Program-made: the position numbers and the translations under genes | Part shown: piece by piece, positions 2,364 through 63,478 of the stretch | Layout of the letters: each line of letters opens with the position of its first letter | How positions within the stretch are numbered: position 1 is the stretch's first letter | Notes under the pieces: model-generated | The model's input: the letters and a program-made list of their open reading frames with translations, nothing else | Database searches by the model: none | Told to the model about the DNA's origin: nothing | DNA from: Cytophagales bacterium | GTDB lineage: Bacteria > Bacteroidota > Bacteroidia > Cytophagales > JAAEPT01 | Length of the DNA stretch: 64,000 nucleotides | Assembly (NCBI GenBank): GCA_024232295.1 | Contig: JAAEPT010000154.1 | Location: forward strand, 9,612 to 73,611 | Reading direction: 5' to 3'

Positions 2364-2826
2364 AAGGCTAACAGATGAGGAATTAACAGCTCTTGAAAAA
2401 GAGTTTGTTGAGTTCTTAGTTTCAAATACAATTACTGCTGATGATTGGGAAAAACTCAAGAAAGATGACACAAATTCTGCTCATGAGTTAATTGACTTAT
2501 TCAGTGATATTGTCCTTGAAAAAGCCTTAGGAAATATTAAATATTTGGAGCATCGAGAAGAAAAGAGCTTGATGCTTTTTGAATGTGGAAAGGAACAAAT
2601 CACATTGATTGGAGTGAATGCCAATGAAAATGTATCAGTAGACTTACGCAATCAAGATTCTATTCAAAGCCTTTTGAATCAAGGAATTGATGATAATGCT
2701 CTTTCTATTTTCAAAACAACCAAAGCCTACCAACAAAGTAGAGAAGAAGAAATTTTTCAGATGACAGAAAATTCTTGTTTAGTCTCTGATGGAGCTTTGT
2801 TTTATAGCCTCAACAAAATCTGCTAA
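2353..2826 (+). CDS. hypothetical acidic protein
   Basis: ATG at 2353 (MKFRRLTDEELTALEKEF...) overlaps the upstream stop by 11 nt. The track start at 2290 lies inside the upstream CDS. Confidence 0.6.
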   Translation: MKFRRLTDEELTALEKEFVEFLVSNTITADDWEKLKKDDTNSAHELIDLFSDIVLEKALGNIKYLEHREEKSLMLFECGKEQITLIGVNANENVSVDLRNQDSIQSLLNQGIDDNALSIFKTTKAYQQSREEEIFQMTENSCLVSDGALFYSLNKIC

Positions 2827-3690
2827 ATGCTAGCTCTTATAGTATTTATCTTATTGACTGCTAGTTTTTCAGTCATTTTCAAATTATTTGACCAATACAA
2901 ACTCAATACATTCCAAGCCATTGTTGTGAATTATTGGGTTTGTGTTTTTACAGGGAGCACCTTTTTTCTATCAAGCAACTCTATCGAAGCCATTTCTTGG
3001 GAGTGGACATGGGGGAAATATGCTATTTTCTTAGGAATGGGATTTATTGGTACTTTTTACCTAATTGCTCTTGTTTCTCAAAAAATCAGCATTGCTATGG
3101 GAGCTTTGGCAAGTAAAACATCCTTGGTAATTCCTGTATTTTTCAGTCTCTTTTTCCTTTCAACTCCTTCATCTTATAAGTGGTATAATTATATTGGCTT
3201 GGGCTTAGCCATTTTCTCTATTGTGATGTCTTCTTTACCAAAGAAAGAGACAAAACAAAAATCACTATGGCTCATTCCTATTGTCTTCCTTCTTACAGGA
3301 AGCTTAGATAGCCTAATTAACTATTCTAATGGATTATTGACAACAGAAACACAGACTCGTGTTTTTCCACTTGTGACCTTCTTTTCTGCCTCTATCGTTG
3401 GTACTATCATTTTGGTTACACAACTTATTCGAAGTAAAGAAAAGGTTGAAATGAAAAATATTATAGGAGGTATTAGTTTAGGTGTCCCCAACTACTTTTC
3501 CATTTACTTTTTATTGAAAGCTTTACAGCACTTTGAAAATAATGGAGCTTGGCTATACCCTGTTGCCAATATTAGCATCATTATCATCACAGGGGCTTTG
3601 GGTTTCTTTCTATTTAAGGAACAACTTGACAACAATAAAAAACTAGGGATAGGATTGGCTATATTAGCAATTATTCTTTATGCTATTTAA
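2827..3690 (+). CDS. polytopic membrane protein, DMT/EamA-like transporter
   Basis: 287 aa with about 10 hydrophobic segments in two similar halves. Start abuts the upstream stop. Confidence 0.5.
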   Translation: MLALIVFILLTASFSVIFKLFDQYKLNTFQAIVVNYWVCVFTGSTFFLSSNSIEAISWEWTWGKYAIFLGMGFIGTFYLIALVSQKISIAMGALASKTSLVIPVFFSLFFLSTPSSYKWYNYIGLGLAIFSIVMSSLPKKETKQKSLWLIPIVFLLTGSLDSLINYSNGLLTTETQTRVFPLVTFFSASIVGTIILVTQLIRSKEKVEMKNIIGGISLGVPNYFSIYFLLKALQHFENNGAWLYPVANISIIIITGALGFFLFKEQLDNNKKLGIGLAILAIILYAI

Positions 3691-3755
3691 AGTTCTTATT
3701 TCAAAAACACCCTTTTTTTTGTAATTTAACGGGGCAAAAACAAATATAAATAGAC

Positions 3756-4571
3756 ATGAAAACATTAGGCACATTGTTTTTTACTTTCTGTGCACTAGCC
3801 ATCTCATTTGCTCAATCCAATACACAAGTTCGTTTAGATGATGTCTTTTTTGATAAAAATCAATCTGATATTAAAGGAGCAGCAAAATCGGCACTAGATT
3901 ATAACATTACATTACTCAAAAAGCATAAAGAAATTCATATTATGCTAAATGGTTATATCGATGAAATAGAATTTGAAACTAATCAAGGCATTCATGAGAA
4001 ACGTCTCCAATCAGTCATCAAGTATTTGAAAAAAAATGAAATAGACTTAAATAGAATATATGTTTCGGAAGAAAAGTATCACTATGAAACACATTTATAT
4101 TTTGCCAATACATTAGGAGGAGATTTAAAAGATCGAATGCATAGAAAAGTTTCTTTTAAATTGATAAAAAAAGACCCAGAACAAGACGAAAACATAGTAA
4201 CTGCTCATACTTTTATCAATACTCATCATCATGAGATACATGATATTATTGTGCAAGCAAAAGAACATCCAGAAATAAAGTGTACTTACAAAATTCAGTT
4301 AGCGGCTTTAAGTGATGCAACCAAACAGTCAGAGTTTCAACCATTAGAAGTTGAAACAATTCCATTTGGAAATGGCTTATTTCGTTATACAACAGGAAAT
4401 ACTACAAATATTGAAGACGCAATACATATATTGACTGCAGTACAACTACAAGGCTTCACCACAGCTTTTATCATTGTAAATAAAGATGAAGAGGCTTTGG
4501 AACCTACAACAAATCATACAACTGGGGCAGATTCTACAACAACACAAGTAGATGCGAATTCAGGGCAATAA
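3756..4571 (+). CDS. secreted protein with C-terminal SPOR-like domain
   Basis: Signal peptide MKTLGTLFFTFCALAISFAQS. C-terminal YKIQLAALSD...GLFRYTTGN...GFTTAFIIV resembles a SPOR fold. The N-terminal half is weakly OmpA-like. Confidence 0.45.
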   Translation: MKTLGTLFFTFCALAISFAQSNTQVRLDDVFFDKNQSDIKGAAKSALDYNITLLKKHKEIHIMLNGYIDEIEFETNQGIHEKRLQSVIKYLKKNEIDLNRIYVSEEKYHYETHLYFANTLGGDLKDRMHRKVSFKLIKKDPEQDENIVTAHTFINTHHHEIHDIIVQAKEHPEIKCTYKIQLAALSDATKQSEFQPLEVETIPFGNGLFRYTTGNTTNIEDAIHILTAVQLQGFTTAFIIVNKDEEALEPTTNHTTGADSTTTQVDANSGQ

Positions 4572-6255: not shown

Positions 6256-7920
6256 TTATCGCTCTGCTATGAATAAAAAGTCACTTCCTGGCTCATTCTC
6301 TCCAAACTCTCCATGATGAGGAGTGGGAGTTGCATGTTCTACATAGCCAATTAATTCAGAAAAAGTCAGAATATAATCTTTCCCTCCATTATTTCGTAGT
6401 GCTTCCAATACTCTACGAGCAAAAGGAGAATGATTTCCTGCTCTACCATCGGGCACATATTCTTTTCCTCCAGAAGTAATAAATTTTCGTGTTTTGAATT
6501 CCAATTTTCGGGCAATAAATTGTTCAGAAGAAGTATTTTGAGAAATATTATTCCCTCCTCCCCTATGCTTAGATAAGTTTTGATCAAATGTTCCTCCAAA
6601 ACAAACATCCATCATTAGACAAGTATGCTCACAAGGTATATTGTTAATGATTGTTCTAAGAATAGAATGAGGTATATAGCTTGTATTTCCATCATCATCA
6701 ACCAAAGAGTTTGAACAAACTACATATCCCTCTCCAAAATCTTCATCATATTGCCCATGCCCTGCAAAAAACACAAATAACTGATCATGTGGATTATATG
6801 ATTTCTTAGCATATTCTTTCAACTTTGCCATCATATCTCTTTTGGGTGCATTTTCCACAATTTCTACCTCAAAGCCATAGCGTTCTGTTAGTTCTTTGGC
6901 TATTGCTTTGGCATCAAATACAGGATTAGTAAGGTCTGTCCAATGAGCATATTCATTTGTCGCAAATAAAAGAGCATAGTCTTTTCTATCCAATGTTCCT
7001 GTTTTGGTATCTACCTTAATAATTCGCTTTGAAATGGTTAAATTCCCTTGTTCATCCTCTACAAATAATTGCAGTTCATTGATTCCTAATTCCAAAGTAA
7101 TATCTTCTGCCAAGACCTCTTGAAGCCCTCCTCCTTCTATTGCATTCCCATATACTTCGTCATTTACCATTAAACGCACACCAACTATTGGATAAAGTGA
7201 TTTAATATTGGCTTCTACATGTAGATGTTTGGTATAAATTGTACTTAACTCATGTTTAGGGTTAAACCAAACCACTACAGGTTTAGCATCTTTTTCAGCT
7301 TGGCTCATCTTTCGTTTGACCTTTACATTCTGAATTGATAATTTCATATTAGCATTCACAATGTACCCCATTTGTTTTCCTAAAAACGGTTGAAAATCTG
7401 CTGTATGAATATGCTCTCCATTGACATAGAATAAAATACGCTTTTCTTTCTTTTTGATTTTAAGAGTATTCAGTTGCCCCATCGGTTTGATAATCTCATT
7501 CCCTAGACGTACCCAAGGACGAATTTGAATAAACTCCCCATCTTCCACTTGATAAATATTACACTTACCATCAGAACTAATGGTGAAGGCAAAAAAGTTA
7601 TTTCCATCTTTGGCTCCCCACACAAAACCATAACCATAGCGTTGATCACCAGAAAGCTGTTTGAGTGTAGTAGTTATTTCGAAGTTTTTGTGACTATTAA
7701 AGTTGGCATTGGCATTCAAAAAAAGTGAAGCTCCTGTTGTAGAAACTTGCTGAACAATATACTTACCATTAATGACTTTCGCTTTTACGTTTGAGGTATT
7801 TGTAACCAACCATTTTTTTTGATTGTCTTTAAAATTTTCCTTAAACAATACTTTATCTTGAGCACAAGCATTGTATACAAATACAAAAAAAGAAATGAGT
7901 AGAAGGATTTTTTTCATCAT
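6256..7920 (-). CDS. secreted caspase-family (peptidase C14) protein with N-terminal jelly-roll-like domain
   Basis: Signal peptide MMKKILLLISFFVFVYNACAQ. The C-terminal half has the catalytic His context LFVFFAGHGQY and Cys context LMMDVCFGG. Confidence 0.8.
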   Translation of the reverse strand: MMKKILLLISFFVFVYNACAQDKVLFKENFKDNQKKWLVTNTSNVKAKVINGKYIVQQVSTTGASLFLNANANFNSHKNFEITTTLKQLSGDQRYGYGFVWGAKDGNNFFAFTISSDGKCNIYQVEDGEFIQIRPWVRLGNEIIKPMGQLNTLKIKKKEKRILFYVNGEHIHTADFQPFLGKQMGYIVNANMKLSIQNVKVKRKMSQAEKDAKPVVVWFNPKHELSTIYTKHLHVEANIKSLYPIVGVRLMVNDEVYGNAIEGGGLQEVLAEDITLELGINELQLFVEDEQGNLTISKRIIKVDTKTGTLDRKDYALLFATNEYAHWTDLTNPVFDAKAIAKELTERYGFEVEIVENAPKRDMMAKLKEYAKKSYNPHDQLFVFFAGHGQYDEDFGEGYVVCSNSLVDDDGNTSYIPHSILRTIINNIPCEHTCLMMDVCFGGTFDQNLSKHRGGGNNISQNTSSEQFIARKLEFKTRKFITSGGKEYVPDGRAGNHSPFARRVLEALRNNGGKDYILTFSELIGYVEHATPTPHHGEFGENEPGSDFLFIAER

Positions 7921-7953
7921 AAGGCATTCTTAAAATAACAGGTGTACATTAAA

Positions 7954-7983
7954 AAAGCTGTTCATAAATTTACAAACAGCTTT
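7954..7983 (-). terminator. terminator hairpin
   Basis: AAAGCTGTT / AACAGCTTT stem just downstream of the 7988 stop. Confidence 0.5.
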
Positions 7984-7987
7984 CTAG

Positions 7988-8299
7988 TTATTGTTTTGGT
8001 TCTTCTCCCAATTTCAGGCCAAATCTGCTAAGCATCTTCTTTTCAAATGCACAAAAAAACTTGAATTGTCCTAATAGAGTTCCATTAATCAACAATGTGA
8101 TTTGATAAAATACAAATACTAACAAGAAACTTAGTGGATAATAAACCCAAGGACCAATATTCTCAATTGATAATCCTAGCCATTCCATTAAATGTCTTCT
8201 CATAAAGGCAGCTGTTGAACCTGTAACGGCAAAAGTAATCAAAATCAATGCGAATTGTAGATTACTTGTTATTCCCCACTTTTCTTTCAAACGATTCAT
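7988..8299 (-). CDS. small membrane protein
   Basis: 103 aa with 2-3 hydrophobic helices, tightly packed behind the pseudouridine synthase gene. Confidence 0.5.
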   Translation of the reverse strand: MNRLKEKWGITSNLQFALILITFAVTGSTAAFMRRHLMEWLGLSIENIGPWVYYPLSFLLVFVFYQITLLINGTLLGQFKFFCAFEKKMLSRFGLKLGEEPKQ

Positions 8300-8301
8300 C
8301 T

Positions 8302-9057
8302 TTATAACATATTTTGATTATCTAATAAACCTCTCAACTCTCTATCACTTTTCTTATCTAATGTAAGATACTGTTCCCAGAAATCTTGATTTGGTAAACC
8401 AGCAATTAACGTAATTGATTCTTTGGTAACAGGATGGTTAAAGTGTAATCTTCTTGCATGTAAGTTAATATCACGCTTTCCTGGATTAAACTTCACAAAA
8501 CCATACTTTACATCTCCCCTAATTGGACAACCCATAGAAGCCAATTGAACACGAATTTGATGTGGTCTTCCTGTAATTGGAGAAACCTCCAACAACCAAT
8601 GATCATTTAGTTTTCCTAATGCCTTATAAGTTAATGTAGCCTTTAAAGAACCTTCCTTTTCCTTATCATAAGCCTTTGTAATATTCTTTGCAGAATCTTT
8701 TACTAACCAATGATTTAAACGTCCTTGTTCTGGTCTTGGCTTCCTTTTTACAATTGCCCAATAGGTCTTATAAATCTTCTTTTCACGCATCATTTTGTTC
8801 ATGCGTTCCAAAGCTTTGGATGTTTTGGCAAACATTACCAAACCACTTACAGGACGATCCAAACGGTGAATTGTACCTAAGTACACATTCCCTGGTTTGT
8901 TATATTTTTCGTTGATATATGCCTTTACATAATCAGAAAGTGTAGTATCTCCAGTCTTATCTCCTTGTACTAGTACACCACTTTCTTTATTGACTACAAT
9001 CAAGTGATTATCCTCATATACTACCTGAAAAGGCATTCCTTCTATCTTCTGTTCCAT
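8302..9057 (-). CDS. RluA-family pseudouridine synthase
   Basis: HRLDRPVSGLVMFAKT catalytic-Asp motif and PHQIRVQLA motif. Confidence 0.85.
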   Translation of the reverse strand: MEQKIEGMPFQVVYEDNHLIVVNKESGVLVQGDKTGDTTLSDYVKAYINEKYNKPGNVYLGTIHRLDRPVSGLVMFAKTSKALERMNKMMREKKIYKTYWAIVKRKPRPEQGRLNHWLVKDSAKNITKAYDKEKEGSLKATLTYKALGKLNDHWLLEVSPITGRPHQIRVQLASMGCPIRGDVKYGFVKFNPGKRDINLHARRLHFNHPVTKESITLIAGLPNQDFWEQYLTLDKKSDRELRGLLDNQNML

Positions 9058-59185: not shown

Positions 59186-59803
59186 ATGAAATTAGATGTT
59201 AGTTTGTTAAAGTCTGTATTGACAATATATGACGAAATGGAAAACAATGGGCTTTCTCTTTGTTATCTAGGTGAATTTAACCAAGATATTACAAAAATGT
59301 TTACCTCTATGGCTGAAGATGAAATGGATCGAAAGTCTGAGGGACGAGCGGTAAAGAAGAAAGTTTATCATGTCATGGTAGAGACTTTGCAAAACATGAA
59401 TAAGCACTCTGATGAATTAGCGGATGACTTACAAATTGGTAAGGGTTTGTTTATGATTGGACAAAAAGAAGAGACTTATTTTGTAATCACTTCTAATAGA
59501 ATTACAAAAGATAAGCGTCCTTCTCTTGAAAGTGCAATTGATCAAGTAAACAATGCTACTCCAGAAGAATTAAAGGAAATGTATAAAAAGCAAATCAGAG
59601 AAGGTTCTATCTCTGACAGAGGAGGTGCAGGACTTGGTTTGATTGATATTGCTCGTAAGACAGATGAAAAATTAGATTATGAGTTCTTATATCTAAATGA
59701 GGATTATTACTATTTCATTCTAAAAGTAGAAATCAATTCGAAAAAGATTTCTGAACGCATGGAAAAGAAAGCAGAAGAAAAAGCAGCTAACTCAGCAGAA
59801 TAA
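59186..59803 (+). CDS. SiaB-like (histidine-kinase-fold) protein kinase, orphan
   Basis: 205 aa. VMVETLQNMNKH (N-box-like) and DRGGAGLGLIDIARKT (G2-box-like). Confidence 0.6.
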   Translation: MKLDVSLLKSVLTIYDEMENNGLSLCYLGEFNQDITKMFTSMAEDEMDRKSEGRAVKKKVYHVMVETLQNMNKHSDELADDLQIGKGLFMIGQKEETYFVITSNRITKDKRPSLESAIDQVNNATPEELKEMYKKQIREGSISDRGGAGLGLIDIARKTDEKLDYEFLYLNEDYYYFILKVEINSKKISERMEKKAEEKAANSAE

Positions 59804-60429: not shown

Positions 60430-61323
60430 ATGTATATAAGAATAATACTATCATTATCAATCTTACTATCATCACTAACACTCAAAGCTCAAGAAAATAA
60501 TATCTTTGACAGATTATCTGTATTAGATAATAACTTCAAAATGTGGTATAACATTGATGGATATAGTGTAACAAGTGAAACATTATACTTCCCTTTCGAC
60601 AAGGAAGGTTTAGACTTTGCTTATTACAAATTTTCTCTTGAAGATGATAGCTTAACTGTTAACAAAAATATCAAATTCAAAAACTTATTCATTAGCAAAA
60701 AGCAACACCTTGTTGAAATGTCTTATCAAACAAATACTTATTATCTAGTTGAAAATTTAGATAAGACAATAACAGTAATATGGTTCATCAAAGTTGGAAT
60801 TTCAGATAGAAATACAGAAGAAAAACTTGTAAATGCTATCATTAGTAATAGTATTCCAGAAAAATGTATTGTCTCACAAAATACTGACTCTATAATGTTT
60901 GCTGAACGAAAAGTATCTCTAGATAATACATGTTATTGGACATTTCTAAACACAATACAATGTCCTTATCTAGGAGAAATGAATTGGTCTCTTCATCGAA
61001 CATTGGAAAGTGCTGAACAATCTGTAAACACACAATATTTTCTAACAAAACAAAAAGAAGGAAAAATAGTCATAGAAGAAAGTATTGATATCATATTTGA
61101 AGGTGTTCCAACAAAAGCAAAAAGAGTTATTTTTGAATTTACAGGTGCTACAAAAGATTTAGCATCTATGTCTGGAGGAACATCACTCATCATTTACTAT
61201 ATAGTTGCAACAGTAAGAAATAGGCATATTAGCTGTGTATTCAGTCATTGGAATAATGATCAAATAAATCCTGCTACTCAACTACCTCCACTACTAGAAA
61301 AATTCATAAAACTAAAAGAATAA
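60430..61323 (+). CDS. hypothetical secreted protein
   Basis: Signal peptide MYIRIILSLSILLSSLTLKAQ. Lies 3 nt after the oxygenase gene. Confidence 0.5.
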   Translation: MYIRIILSLSILLSSLTLKAQENNIFDRLSVLDNNFKMWYNIDGYSVTSETLYFPFDKEGLDFAYYKFSLEDDSLTVNKNIKFKNLFISKKQHLVEMSYQTNTYYLVENLDKTITVIWFIKVGISDRNTEEKLVNAIISNSIPEKCIVSQNTDSIMFAERKVSLDNTCYWTFLNTIQCPYLGEMNWSLHRTLESAEQSVNTQYFLTKQKEGKIVIEESIDIIFEGVPTKAKRVIFEFTGATKDLASMSGGTSLIIYYIVATVRNRHISCVFSHWNNDQINPATQLPPLLEKFIKLKE

Positions 61324-61326
61324 AAA

Positions 61327-61354
61327 AGTCTCACCTTTATATTAAGGTGAGACT
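61327..61354. terminator. bidirectional terminator
   Basis: AGTCTCACCTT ... AAGGTGAGACT between convergent genes. Confidence 0.7.
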
Positions 61355-61360
61355 CTTATT

Positions 61361-63373
61361 TTACCTAAAAATGGTTACTTCTCCTTTTAATACTTCTTTT
61401 CCATCACCATACAAATCAATTGCATAAGAATAACGATCAGCAGGAAGCATTTTATTCTCATATATTCCCTCCCAAGGAATTTTATAACCAATAGATTCAA
61501 AAATCAACTTTTCTTCTCTTGTCCAGATCTTCACAACACAATCAGGATAACGATCAATATTTCTCAATTGCCACTCATCATTGATTCCATCACCATTTGG
61601 TGTATAAGCAGAAGGAACGTACAACTCATCATCTCCCTCAAACTTATTGTCAATATGCCCAGGTTCATGTAACCACATAATACATTCCTCTACTGAAGAA
61701 AATACATGCTTATCATCAATCATATTTGGAATCACTTCAATTCCTCTCAACAAGTCTAAAACTTCATCATTGGCTTCACTAATACAAACATTAATTCCTT
61801 TATCATGTAATCGTGTAATGGCTTCTTCAAAAGTATAAAGTCCAGATTGATCCATATAGGTTACACCACTCAAATTAAACAAAACAGCTTTTACATCTTT
61901 TACCTCTTTCTGAATATCTTCAATACTATCTTGGAAACGAGAAGCGAAACCAAAGAATACTGGTCCTCTCAAATTCTTTACATAAACTTGAGAACGAAAT
62001 CTCTCACTATCTCCAAAATCATCAATTAATAAATCTACTAATCTATCAACTCTTGAGTCTTTAGAGTTACCCTCTACAACATCGGCCATTTTCTTCATAA
62101 AGAATAAAGCAGAGAAAACAAGTCCTAAACCTACTGCATCCAATAAGTCTACAAAAATGGTGAAGAACAATACAAATAACATAACTGCATTGTCTCTCTT
62201 TGGAATAATCCTAAAATTCTTGACTGCTGAAAAGTCCAAAATAGAAATACCTACTGTTATCAATACCCCTGCTAATACTGCATAAGGAATTTGACCAGCT
62301 ACTGGACCACCAATTAATAACACTAATAATAGAAATAATGCATGAATCATTCCTGATATCTTTGTAAAACCACCAGAATTGATGTTTAATACCGTTGCAG
62401 GTGTTGTTCCTGCTCCTGGGATACCTCCTACCAATGCAGAAAACATATTACCAATTCCTTGTCCCAATAATTCTCTATCACTGTTATGCTTGGTCTTAGT
62501 TAATTTGTCTGCTACCACAGAAGTCAATAAACTATCAATAATTCCTAAAGCGGCTAATGAAAAGGCTGTAGTTATAACCATTCCGAGGTCTACTAATTCA
62601 AAAGAAGAAAAAATCTCCAATTTAATGCTTGGTAATTTACTTGGGATATTCTCTGCTCCAATTACCTTTACATCACCATTCCATCCTACAAAATAAGAAA
62701 AAGCTGTTACAGCCACCAAAGCAACTAAAGCACTTGGAACCTTCTTTGTTATTTTAGGAAAAAAACGAATAATAGCAATTGTAGCACTTGCCAATACAAT
62801 GCTTTTCCATGAGGCATTTTGGACGAAATAAGGAATTCCTAACAAAGATTCTAATACAGCATGCGGTCCTTCAATATCGAGTATTTCTTTTCCTCTCACA
62901 ATAAAATCAATTTCAGCAGGAACAAACTCCGTCACTCCAAAAAATTGCTTCAATTGAAGGATAATAATAATTCCTCCAATACCACTCATGAAACCAGAAA
63001 CTACAGGGTGAGGAATATAACTTACATACTTTCCAACCTTCGCAAAGCCCAAAATAAATTGTATTAGACCTGCTGTAAAGAAAATAAGAAGAATAGTAGG
63101 TAATGCTTTTTCTAAACTTCCTATCCTTTCGATTTGCCCTCCTACAATCAGTCCTGTTACAACTGCCATTGGACCTGTAGGGTTACTAATCAAGGTTTGT
63201 GTTCCACCAACAAGGGCTGCTAAAAAACCTAATACAATTGCTCCATATAAACCATGAATAGGACTAAGCCCTGCTGCTGCACCAAAGGCCAATGCTACAG
63301 GTAAAGCAACTACTCCTGCAGAGATACCTCCAAAAAAATCTCCTTTGAGATTACTAAAATCAAACTTGAACAT
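61361..63373 (-). CDS. SulP-family anion transporter with STAS domain and an appended T9SS type-B (gliding-motility) C-terminal domain
   Basis: N-terminus DFFGGISAGVVALPVALAFG..., polytopic core, and STAS (VKAVLFNLSGVTYMDQSGLYTFEEAI). An extra 87 aa follows: LYVPSAYTPNGDGINDEWQL... Confidence 0.9.
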   Translation of the reverse strand: MFKFDFSNLKGDFFGGISAGVVALPVALAFGAAAGLSPIHGLYGAIVLGFLAALVGGTQTLISNPTGPMAVVTGLIVGGQIERIGSLEKALPTILLIFFTAGLIQFILGFAKVGKYVSYIPHPVVSGFMSGIGGIIIILQLKQFFGVTEFVPAEIDFIVRGKEILDIEGPHAVLESLLGIPYFVQNASWKSIVLASATIAIIRFFPKITKKVPSALVALVAVTAFSYFVGWNGDVKVIGAENIPSKLPSIKLEIFSSFELVDLGMVITTAFSLAALGIIDSLLTSVVADKLTKTKHNSDRELLGQGIGNMFSALVGGIPGAGTTPATVLNINSGGFTKISGMIHALFLLLVLLIGGPVAGQIPYAVLAGVLITVGISILDFSAVKNFRIIPKRDNAVMLFVLFFTIFVDLLDAVGLGLVFSALFFMKKMADVVEGNSKDSRVDRLVDLLIDDFGDSERFRSQVYVKNLRGPVFFGFASRFQDSIEDIQKEVKDVKAVLFNLSGVTYMDQSGLYTFEEAITRLHDKGINVCISEANDEVLDLLRGIEVIPNMIDDKHVFSSVEECIMWLHEPGHIDNKFEGDDELYVPSAYTPNGDGINDEWQLRNIDRYPDCVVKIWTREEKLIFESIGYKIPWEGIYENKMLPADRYSYAIDLYGDGKEVLKGEVTIFR
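61364..61624 (-). other. T9SS type-B sorting-domain-like module (CHU_C / gliding motility-associated C-terminal domain) at the transporter C-terminus
   Basis: The signature P-S/N-A-F/Y-T-P-N-G-D-G-I-N-D is present as VPSAYTPNGDGINDEW, and later IPWEGIY...LPADRYSYAI. Confidence 0.7.
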
Positions 63374-63430
63374 AAAAAAGAAAACTAAAATTATCTTACT
63401 ACAAGATAAGATAACTTATAGCAATAAAAA

Positions 63431-63456
63431 AAGGTATGCTTTAAGAAACATACCTT
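63431..63456 (-). terminator. terminator hairpin
   Basis: AAGGTATG ... CATACCTT, T-rich on both sides. Confidence 0.55.
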
Positions 63457-63478
63457 TTTGTTAATTCTGTGACATTAG

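What the first reader, a model, noticed from the sequence alone, without database searches (positions are those of the whole stretch)
61364..61624. Inner-membrane SulP-STAS transporter fused in frame to a T9SS type-B sorting domain
Seen in sequence:
- The STAS domain ends at ...FSSVEECIMWL.
- After the linker HEPGHIDNKFEGDDE, the same ORF continues for 87 aa as LYVPSAYTPNGDGINDEWQLRNIDRYPDCVVKIW...PWEGIYENKMLPADRYSYAIDLYGDGKEVLKGEVTIFR.

Established knowledge: the xPNAFTPNGDGINDxF motif defines the gliding-motility-associated / T9SS type-B C-terminal domain. That domain targets secreted cargo through the type IX system after Sec export. STAS domains of SulP transporters are cytoplasmic.

Inference: the topology is paradoxical. 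This could be a fusion scar, where a deletion joined the transporter to the 3' end of a lost T9SS cargo gene. It could instead be a repurposed beta-sandwich domain with a cytoplasmic role, or an assembly artefact. I know of no described SulP with this architecture.
Basis: partly seen in the sequence, partly recalled or inferred. Interest (0 to 1): 0.6.

Follow-up and report, generated by a model that had tools for sequence, protein, structure and literature searches.

The report
Anion transporter carrying a secretion-tag domain
A real and widely conserved family of inner-membrane anion transporters in Cytophagales-type bacteria ends in a domain otherwise known only as an outer-membrane secretion tag, apparently on the cytoplasmic side where that tag cannot work, so the domain has probably been re-used for another job.

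Summary

It is not a fusion scar or a misassembly:
- At least 93 protein clusters (43-100% identity), including some from 4.5-6.5 Mb contigs, share the architecture. Some genomes carry two or three paralogues.
- The CTD is as conserved as the transporter core (57% vs 54% mean identity; dN/dS 0.11-0.21).
- The STAS-CTD linker is fixed at 17-18 residues.
- Nearly all members end in the canonical ..φFR.

Homology to BicA, 14 modelled helices, the positive-inside rule and the absence of any extra hydrophobic segment all place STAS and the CTD in the cytoplasm. There is no signal peptide, and a PorP/SprF gene is adjacent in only 1 of 13 contexts.

Best reading: a type B CTD β-sandwich was captured once and re-used as a cytoplasmic, STAS-coupled regulatory or assembly module. 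It is more acidic than cargo CTDs. The exact role is inferred, not shown.

NCBI already auto-names this protein a "T9SS type B sorting domain-containing protein", but I found no paper describing the architecture. I rate it a new variant of a known kind, of moderate interest.

The parts
61361..63373 (-). Complete CDS (670 aa plus stop) of the SulP-STAS-type B CTD protein
   Evidence: It is identical to NCBI protein P0001. The N-terminus aligns with residue 5 of BicA, and the N-terminal NLKGD motif is shared by all family members.
62075..63349 (-). SulP/SLC26 membrane domain, residues ~9-433 (14 helices)
   Evidence: Pfam PF00916 covers residues 9-399 at 6.7e-73. phmmer against BicA 6KI1 aligns query 3-415 to chain 5-392 at 1.9e-80. 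The AF2 model shows 14 helices. Positive-inside count is 15 vs 5 K/R.
61685..61990 (-). STAS domain, residues 462-563
   Evidence: Pfam PF01740 at 7e-16. It matches the STAS crystal structure 3MGL. The AF2 model shows an alpha/beta fold with pLDDT ~83-89.
61619..61684 (-). Family-specific linker, residues 564-585 (..CIMWL-HEPGHIDNKFEGDDE-LY..)
   Evidence: This is the most conserved segment of the protein (61% mean pairwise identity). P571, G572, H573, L584 and Y585 are nearly invariant. The length is fixed at 17-18 residues in 87 of 87 members where both anchor motifs were found. The unfused sister proteins diverge immediately after WL.
61364..61618 (-). T9SS type B CTD-family (CHU_C) beta-sandwich, residues 586-670, ending the protein
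   Evidence: PF13585 and TIGR04131 both score above their cut-offs. AF2 pLDDT is 90-96 in the tail-only model. It keeps the positions conserved in 27 cargo CTDs. dN/dS is 0.11-0.21.
61324..61357 (.). Bidirectional terminator-like hairpin a few bases after the stop codon, shared with the convergent ORF 60430..61323
   Evidence: 14-bp stem on the minus strand and 11-bp stem on the plus strand, each followed by a T-run. This supports the CTD being the true 3' end of the gene.
63428..63459 (-). Terminator-like hairpin after the upstream LysM gene, separating it from the transporter gene
   Evidence: 14-bp stem followed by a T-run. This suggests the transporter gene is its own transcription unit.

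Best explanation
This is an intact member of a conserved family of BicA-like SulP/SLC26 inner-membrane anion transporters from Cytophagales-type Bacteroidota. In this family a T9SS type B CTD (CHU_C) beta-sandwich was captured, probably once, onto the C-terminus of the cytoplasmic STAS domain.

The domain sits in the cytoplasm, so it cannot act as a Sec/T9SS sorting signal. It has been re-used as a STAS-coupled accessory module held at a fixed distance by a conserved 17-18-residue linker.

The most likely role is regulatory or architectural. It may clamp or stabilise the STAS dimer, or dock on the basic cytoplasmic face or vestibule of the membrane domain to gate transport. That would be analogous to post-STAS C-terminal elements in other SLC26 proteins.

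Shown here: the architecture, its conservation, purifying selection, the inferred cytoplasmic topology, and the lack of canonical T9SS-cargo features.

Inferred only: the regulatory or assembly mechanism, and the transported anion.
For: Architecture and thresholds.

Conservation:
- P0001-P0093 all carry PF00916, PF01740 and PF13585 at 43-100% identity, some from 4.5-6.5 Mb contigs.
- Some genomes have two or three fused paralogues, partly in tandem.
- In the unrooted NJ tree of the SulP+STAS region, one split separates the 91 fused from the 27 unfused proteins, which fits a single fusion event.

Selection:
- Mean pairwise identity is 0.57 for the CTD, 0.54 for the membrane domain and 0.53 for STAS.
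- dN/dS is 0.11-0.21 for the CTD and 0.08-0.14 for the membrane domain.
- 87 of 91 members end in R; the other four end in D or H.

Fixed geometry: the linker is 17-18 aa in 87 of 87 members where it could be measured, and it is the most conserved region.

Topology:
- End-to-end alignment to the BicA structure 6KI1.
- 14 helices in the AF2 model, pLDDT 84.9, pTM 0.73.
- K/R count of 15 on the N/C-terminal side vs 5 on the other side.
- No hydrophobic segment in the last 225 aa of any of the 91 members (maximum KD19 of 1.26).

Divergence from cargo CTDs: net charge is -4.0 vs +0.3, with NRyG->TREG, WDG->WEG and GTYYY->sDkYhY.

No PorP/SprF neighbour in 12 of 13 contexts.

Transporter role: the divergent sub-clade sits next to an ExtI-like outer-membrane porin and an OmpR-type two-component system.

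Precedent for post-STAS regulatory elements: the SLC26A9 C-terminal helix plugs the ion pathway (PMC11214054). SulP-carbonic anhydrase fusions also exist (PMC6458275).
Against: No direct evidence bears on what the domain does. I could not obtain model coordinates or PAE, so STAS-CTD or membrane-domain-CTD contacts are untested.

The tail keeps essentially every position that is conserved in genuine cargo CTDs, including the extreme C-terminal ..φφR. That is more than a generic scaffold would seem to need, unless those positions mainly determine the fold.

One locus (L087) has a PorP_SprF gene directly upstream on the same strand.

No conserved cytoplasmic partner gene was found nearby.

Topology is inferred from homology and sequence rules, not measured.
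Confidence: 0.6

Rival explanations
1. The CTD is a cytoplasmic docking platform for a separate partner protein, such as a metabolic enzyme or signalling protein, rather than an intramolecular regulator. STAS domains and SulP-carbonic anhydrase fusions couple transport to downstream chemistry in a similar way.
For: STAS domains are known interaction platforms, and SulP-carbonic anhydrase fusions or adjacency exist (PMC6458275). The Ig-like beta-sandwich fold is a common binding module. The family-specific acidic surface changes could define a new binding face.
Against: No conserved candidate partner gene appears across 13 contexts. The rigid, fixed-length, highly conserved linker points to a defined intramolecular geometry more than to a flexible tether.
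Confidence: 0.22
2. The tail still works as a genuine type B CTD. It would engage a PorP/SprF-like or other T9SS/outer-membrane component, for example by tethering the transporter to an outer-membrane porin or to the T9SS, or by being released and exported.
For: All conserved CTD positions and the C-terminal ..φφR are retained. HMM scores are well above the curated cut-offs. A PorP_SprF gene lies immediately upstream in L087. An outer-membrane porin gene follows the transporter in L088, L089 and L091.
Against: There is no signal peptide, and the N-terminus is TM1 of the SulP fold. There are 14 TMs, the positive-inside rule places the C-terminus inside, and no member has a hydrophobic segment after TM14. 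STAS domains of SLC26/SulP proteins are cytoplasmic in all solved structures. PorP/SprF adjacency occurs in 1 of 13 contexts, and that locus also has an LRR-CHU_C cargo gene that could be its true partner. The tail is acidified relative to cargo CTDs.
Confidence: 0.06
3. A fusion scar: a deletion joined the transporter to the 3' end of a lost cargo gene, and the tail is a neutral relic.
For: The domain clearly derives from the cargo CTD family. It is 38% identical to cargo CTDs on average and up to 49%, and the best cargo hits in the representative search are at about 45-53%.
Against: The tail is conserved in at least 93 clusters down to 43% overall identity. CTD identity equals that of the transporter core. 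dN/dS is 0.11-0.21. Linker length is invariant and the stop position is the same throughout. Paralogues have expanded while retaining the tail.
Confidence: 0.02
4. An assembly or frameshift artefact in this MAG.
For: None found.
Against: The same continuous frame is present in independent assemblies from NCBI, ENA, JGI and Logan, including contigs of 4.5, 5.6 and 6.5 Mb. A terminator hairpin directly follows the stop codon.
Confidence: 0.005

Closest known systems
BicA, the cyanobacterial Na+-dependent bicarbonate transporter (SulP/SLC26; PDB 6KI1)
   Same: It is the best solved-structure match (1.9e-80, aligned over the whole membrane domain) and the best NCBIfam model (NF050096, 376.7 bits). 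It has the same 14-TM core followed by a cytoplasmic STAS domain.
   Different: The score is far below the BicA equivalog cut-off of 880, so substrate identity is not established. BicA has no domain after STAS. This protein also has a ~20-residue periplasmic insertion in the loop between TM5 and TM6, seen as gaps in the BicA alignment.
T9SS type B CTD cargo proteins (SprB and others; TIGR04131 / PF13585), which pair with PorP/SprF-like shuttle proteins
   Same: The tail belongs to the same sequence family and has the same length. It sits at the extreme C-terminus, shares the conserved blocks (P..FTPNGDG.ND.W / NR.G / GY..W.G / LP.G.Y.Y.I / G.VT..R) and is predicted as a beta-sandwich.
   Different: Cargo proteins are large Sec-exported adhesins or enzymes with signal peptides, often encoded next to a cognate porP/sprF-like gene (PMC12618676, PMC9143113). 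Here the host is a multi-pass inner-membrane transporter with no signal peptide. The tail is predicted to be cytoplasmic, it is acidic (net -4 vs +0.3), and it generally lacks a PorP/SprF neighbour.
SulP transporters with extra cytoplasmic C-terminal modules (e.g. SulP-carbonic anhydrase fusions; Felce & Saier 2004, cited in PMC6458275)
   Same: A bacterial SulP core is extended by gene fusion with an additional cytoplasmic domain that modifies or couples transport.
   Different: In those fusions the added domain is an enzyme with an obvious link to the substrate, and it replaces STAS. Here a secretion-signal-family beta-sandwich is added after an intact STAS domain.
The SLC26A9 post-STAS C-terminal helix, which plugs the intracellular ion pathway (PMC11214054)
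   Same: It is a regulatory element placed C-terminal to STAS in an SLC26-family transporter, and it serves as the mechanistic analogy for the proposed role.
   Different: It is a short helix or PDZ motif in a mammalian channel-like transporter, not a folded 85-aa beta-sandwich. No homology is implied.

Membership tests
SulP / SLC26 anion transporter family | Sulfate_transp (PF00916) membrane domain scoring above the curated threshold | tested here: met
   246.1 bits against a gathering score of 23.2, residues 9-399.
SulP / SLC26 anion transporter family | 14-TM (7+7) core alignable end to end with a solved SulP structure | tested here: met
   BicA 6KI1 aligns query 3-415 to chain 5-392 at 1.9e-80. 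The AF2 model has 14 helices.
SulP / SLC26 anion transporter family | C-terminal cytoplasmic STAS domain | tested here: met
   PF01740 scores 58.4 bits against 22.6. Cytoplasmic location is inferred from homology and the positive-inside rule, not measured.
BicA bicarbonate transporter (NCBIfam NF050096 equivalog) | Score at or above the equivalog cut-off of 880 bits | tested here: not met
   376.7 bits. The protein is BicA-like, but the substrate cannot be assigned.
T9SS type B C-terminal sorting domain (TIGR04131 / PF13585), as a sequence family | HMM score above the curated cut-offs | tested here: met
   TIGR04131 scores 54.8 against 35, and PF13585 scores 52.8 against 27.
T9SS type B C-terminal sorting domain (TIGR04131 / PF13585), as a sequence family | Located at the extreme C-terminus, with the conserved blocks shared by cargo CTDs | tested here: met
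   87 of 91 family members end in R, mostly ..IFR. A column-by-column comparison with 27 cargo CTDs shows the conserved positions are retained. The motifs A-E of PMC12618676 are not spelled out in the text I read, so the mapping to those named motifs is my inference.
T9SS type B cargo (functional class: a protein secreted by the T9SS) | N-terminal Sec signal peptide, so that the CTD is periplasmic | tested here: not met
   The N-terminus is TM1 of the SulP fold. The C-terminus is predicted to be cytoplasmic. No extra hydrophobic segment occurs in any of the 91 members.
T9SS type B cargo (functional class: a protein secreted by the T9SS) | Genetic linkage to a cognate PorP/SprF-like shuttle gene (frequent but not universal) | tested here: not met
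   Absent in the window and in 11 other contexts. Present only in L087.
T9SS type B cargo (functional class: a protein secreted by the T9SS) | T9SS-dependent export or surface localisation | not testable with these tools
   This needs fractionation or proteomics in wild-type and T9SS-mutant cells.

The most novel reading that the evidence does not exclude
The type B CTD fold has a second, unrecognised function on the cytoplasmic side of Bacteroidota cells. Alternatively, this tail still engages a T9SS/gliding or PorP/SprF-type partner, physically coupling an anion transporter to the secretion/motility apparatus or to an outer-membrane porin. In either case, the meaning of the 'sorting' motifs would not be limited to outer-membrane translocation.
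Probability: 0.07. Interest if true: 0.85.

Novelty: new variant of a known kind. Interest (0 to 1): 0.5.

Why it matters
1. Annotation. T9SS cargo is routinely inventoried by TIGR04131/PF13585 hits, and this family is a systematic false positive. NCBI names this very transporter a "T9SS type B sorting domain-containing protein".

2. A natural experiment on the type B CTD. A copy that has evolved for a long time outside the secretion pathway still keeps almost all the conserved blocks. Either those blocks mainly specify the fold rather than recognition by the shuttle or translocon, or the domain has an unknown second partner. Comparing cargo and SulP-borne CTDs (acidic shift, TREG/WEG/D.Y.Y substitutions) points to the residues that matter for secretion as opposed to folding.

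3. SLC26/SulP biology. It adds a previously undescribed, rigidly linked post-STAS domain that could serve as a handle on STAS-mediated regulation.

Tried and rejected
- The genome-contig scan with the STAS-linker-CTD alignment was meant to give taxonomic breadth. Only L004 (a Cytophagales MAG) was a true fusion.
- The apparent STAS overlap in L014 (Mucilaginibacter) was spurious. That protein is a 1031-aa adhesin.
- The listing of cluster members returned almost no organism names.
- Foldseek against the PDB with the tail model gave only generic Ig/Fn3-like sandwiches and weak type A CTD hits. It gave no functional clue and found no solved type B relative.
- Gene-neighbourhood analysis found no universally conserved partner. 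The SLT/LysM-methyltransferase-GHMP kinase synteny around the main clade looks like inherited housekeeping synteny.
- The single PorP_SprF adjacency did not recur in the same sub-clade.
- Four literature searches found nothing on this architecture.
- I considered a Ca2+-binding role for the NGDGIND loop, from its resemblance to dockerin/FG-GAP-type loops. This rests only on memory and has no test here, so I make no such claim.
Full report
**1. What is in the sequence**

The minus strand carries one uninterrupted ORF at 61361..63373 (670 aa). The finding's coordinates, 61364..61624, are exactly residues 584-670.

Domain hits are as follows.
- Pfam: Sulfate_transp (residues 9-399, 6.7e-73), STAS (462-563, 7e-16) and CHU_C/PF13585 (586-667, 4.4e-14; 52.8 bits against a gathering score of 27).
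- NCBIfam: TIGR04131 "T9SS type B sorting domain" (586-669, 8e-15; 54.8 bits against a cut-off of 35). The best transporter model is BicA, at 376.7 bits, far below its 880-bit equivalog cut-off.

Terminator-like hairpins lie just after the stop codon (61324-61357, bidirectional) and after the upstream LysM gene (63428-63459). The gene therefore looks like a complete, separate unit. It is the only ORF in the 64-kb window with a type B CTD.

**2. The fusion is a conserved family, not a scar or artefact**

A full-length search returned the identical protein from an NCBI Cytophagales MAG. It also returned 92 further 90%-identity clusters (P0002-P0093, 43-79% identity, ~100% coverage apart from a few fragments) that all carry PF00916, PF01740 and PF13585. 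The next hits (P0094-P0120) lack the tail. Members come from NCBI, ENA, JGI and Logan assemblies, including contigs of 4.5, 5.6 and 6.5 Mb.

Several genomes have more than one fused paralogue:
- two in tandem in L001;
- three in tandem in L088;
- two in L091.

In an NJ tree of the SulP+STAS region, the 27 unfused proteins form one clan. A single split therefore separates fused from unfused, which fits one fusion event. Only the top 120 hits were sampled, so this is provisional.

Conservation and selection:
- Mean pairwise identity among 91 fused members is 0.54 (membrane domain), 0.53 (STAS), 0.61 (STAS-CTD linker) and 0.57 (CTD).
- Nei-Gojobori dN/dS among the window gene and its two closest homologues is 0.11-0.21 for the CTD and 0.08-0.14 for the membrane domain. 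dS is about 0.7-1.5 in these two regions and near saturation, so the values are approximate.
- The linker between the last STAS helix (..W-L) and the CTD's first conserved proline is 17-18 residues in 87 of 87 members where both anchor motifs were found.
- 87 of 91 members end in R, mostly ..IFR.

A neutral relic or a misassembly cannot produce this pattern.

**3. Topology**

The protein aligns from residue 3 to residue 415 with the whole membrane domain of the BicA structure 6KI1 (1.9e-80). The AF2 model (pLDDT 84.9, pTM 0.73) has 14 membrane helices, then STAS, then a folded beta domain. Loops on the N/C-terminal side hold 15 K/R, against 5 on the other side (0.17 vs 0.05 per residue). Nothing after residue 434 is hydrophobic enough to span the membrane (maximum KD19 of 0.62). 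The same holds for the last 225 residues of all 91 fused members (maximum 1.26).

There is no signal peptide: the N-terminus is TM1. STAS domains of SLC26/SulP proteins are cytoplasmic (established knowledge; e.g. PMC11214054). STAS, linker and CTD are therefore predicted to be cytoplasmic. This is an inference from homology and sequence rules, not a measurement.

**4. How the tail compares with genuine cargo CTDs**

The genome scan fetched about 27 ordinary type B CTD proteins. They are open frames of roughly 500-2000 aa, mostly with hydrophobic N-termini, such as the NHL/Ig-rich adhesin of L014.

Aligned column by column, the SulP tail keeps the positions that are conserved in cargo: P..FTPNGDG.ND.W.I, NR.G, GY..W.G, LP.G.Y.Y.I and G.VT..R. 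Its mean identity to cargo CTDs is 38%, against 43% among the cargo CTDs themselves.

It does form a distinct sub-family:
- net charge is -4.0 vs +0.3;
- acidic residues make up 16.6% vs 9.0%;
- there are characteristic substitutions: NRyG->TREG, WDG->WEG, GTYYY->sDkYhY and tW->EW.

A phmmer search of the tail against 1.84 billion representative proteins found 20,293 hits. The fused family collapses to a handful of representatives at the top, followed by cargo at about 45-53% identity. Among the best 150, the only multi-pass membrane proteins are SulP transporters. The other candidates I checked were beta-propeller/Ig-type cargo, plus one with no Pfam domain other than CHU_C.

The tail-only AF2 model is confident (pLDDT 90-96). 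Foldseek against the PDB finds only generic Ig/Fn3-like sandwiches and weak similarity to T9SS type A CTDs (8glk_D, PorU, gingipains). No solved type B relative turned up.

Paillat et al. 2025 (PMC12618676) report five conserved type B CTD motifs, each necessary for secretion. They also note that type B substrates are often encoded next to a cognate PorP/SprF-like shuttle gene.

**5. Genomic context**

In the window the neighbours are:
- a LysM protein upstream;
- a convergent 297-aa protein with a signal-peptide-like N-terminus and no Pfam hit;
- a 2OG-Fe(II) oxygenase, a DUF6272 protein, a YfbK-like VWA protein and a TonB-dependent receptor.

None of these is related to the T9SS.

Close relatives share a synteny of methyltransferase, SLT/LysM, the transporter, and then GHMP kinase or DUF6272. 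This looks like inherited housekeeping synteny.

The divergent sub-clade P0084-P0089 is different. There the transporter is followed by a ~438-aa ExtI-like outer-membrane porin (NF040900, 1e-7 to 2e-19) and an OmpR-type response regulator plus histidine kinase (L088, L089, L091). L087 has the two-component system, and L003 has a kinase nearby. That arrangement looks like an anion-uptake cassette and supports a working transporter.

A PorP_SprF gene is adjacent in only one of 13 contexts (L087). That locus also contains an LRR-CHU_C cargo gene, which may be the real partner of that PorP/SprF.

**6. Interpretation**

The evidence supports a real and selectively maintained domain architecture. 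A type B CTD-family beta-sandwich was captured by a BicA-like SulP transporter in a Cytophagales lineage. It has since been kept, rigidly linked to STAS, on what is predicted to be the cytoplasmic side.

It meets the sequence definition of the type B CTD family. It fails the functional requirements of T9SS cargo: it has no Sec signal, no predicted periplasmic exposure and usually no shuttle gene.

I therefore favour a co-opted cytoplasmic accessory module. The invariant linker length, the very high linker conservation and the acidic shift suggest a fixed intramolecular arrangement. One possibility is a clamp on the STAS dimer. Another is docking on the basic cytoplasmic face or vestibule of the membrane domain, by analogy with the SLC26A9 C-terminal helix (PMC11214054). 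This mechanistic step is inference.

A partner-docking role is the main alternative. A residual T9SS-linked role is unlikely but not excluded, and it is the most novel reading. The transported anion is unknown.

**7. Novelty and value**

Four full-text searches found no paper that links SulP/STAS with CHU_C or type B CTDs, and a 2024 review of T9SS functions that I checked does not mention such transporters. Databases already hold many members, and pipelines label them inconsistently: "T9SS type B sorting domain-containing protein" for this one, "SulP family inorganic anion transporter" for others.

I rate it a new variant of a known kind, of moderate interest. It flags a systematic false positive in T9SS cargo prediction. 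It also offers a natural contrast set for separating fold-determining residues from recognition residues in type B CTDs.

Noticed in passing
L087:6069-6833 (+), next to L087:7001-8923: A PorP_SprF-family gene (PF11751, 1e-17) lies 168 bp upstream of a fused SulP-STAS-CHU_C gene on the same strand. An LRR-CHU_C cargo gene (2591-4177, -) and a GldM gene (from 15776) are in the same locus. It is the only one of 13 contexts with such a neighbour.
   Followed up: partly
L088:6854-8170, L089:9076-10392, L091:8931-10250: In the divergent fused sub-clade (P0084-P0089) the transporter is followed by a ~438-aa protein with no Pfam hit that matches the ExtI selenite/tellurite-operon porin model (NF040900). 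An OmpR-type response regulator and a histidine kinase follow. The arrangement looks like a regulated anion-uptake cassette.
   Followed up: partly
L088:616-6842; L001:5758-9998; L091:422-2425 and 7001-8920: Fused SulP-STAS-CHU_C genes occur as two or three paralogues per genome, partly in tandem. The architecture has therefore diversified after the fusion.
   Followed up: partly
window 62810-62938 (-), residues ~146-188: The periplasmic loop between TM5 and TM6 carries a ~20-residue insertion relative to BicA, seen as gaps in the BicA alignment. The AF2 model predicts the loop as short helices.
   Followed up: no
P0130 (2912 aa): A giant protein matches residues 68-93 of the tail query (the LP.D.Y.Y.IDL hairpin region) in 22 separate stretches. 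This suggests a repeat family related to part of the CTD fold.
   Followed up: no
window 60430-61323 (+): A convergent 297-aa ORF with a signal-peptide-like N-terminus (MYIRIILSLSILLSSLTLKAQ) has no Pfam hit. It shares the bidirectional terminator hairpin with the transporter gene.
   Followed up: no
window 59186-59803 (+) and L093:5118-5741 (-): A DUF6272 gene is near the transporter in both the window and a 78%-identical homologue's contig. In the window, a 2OG-Fe(II) oxygenase ORF and the 297-aa ORF lie between the two genes.
   Followed up: no
L002:5505-16546: One fused homologue (P0078, on a 6.5-Mb contig) sits between a TonB-dependent receptor (Plug) gene and a 2201-aa gene with a contractile-injection-system tape-measure domain (PF19268). 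This is probably coincidental.
   Followed up: no
one search hit table (P0001, P0016, P0083, P0040): Product names for the same architecture are inconsistent across sources: 'T9SS type B sorting domain-containing protein', 'SulP family inorganic anion transporter' and 'SulP family sulfate permease'.
   Followed up: yes
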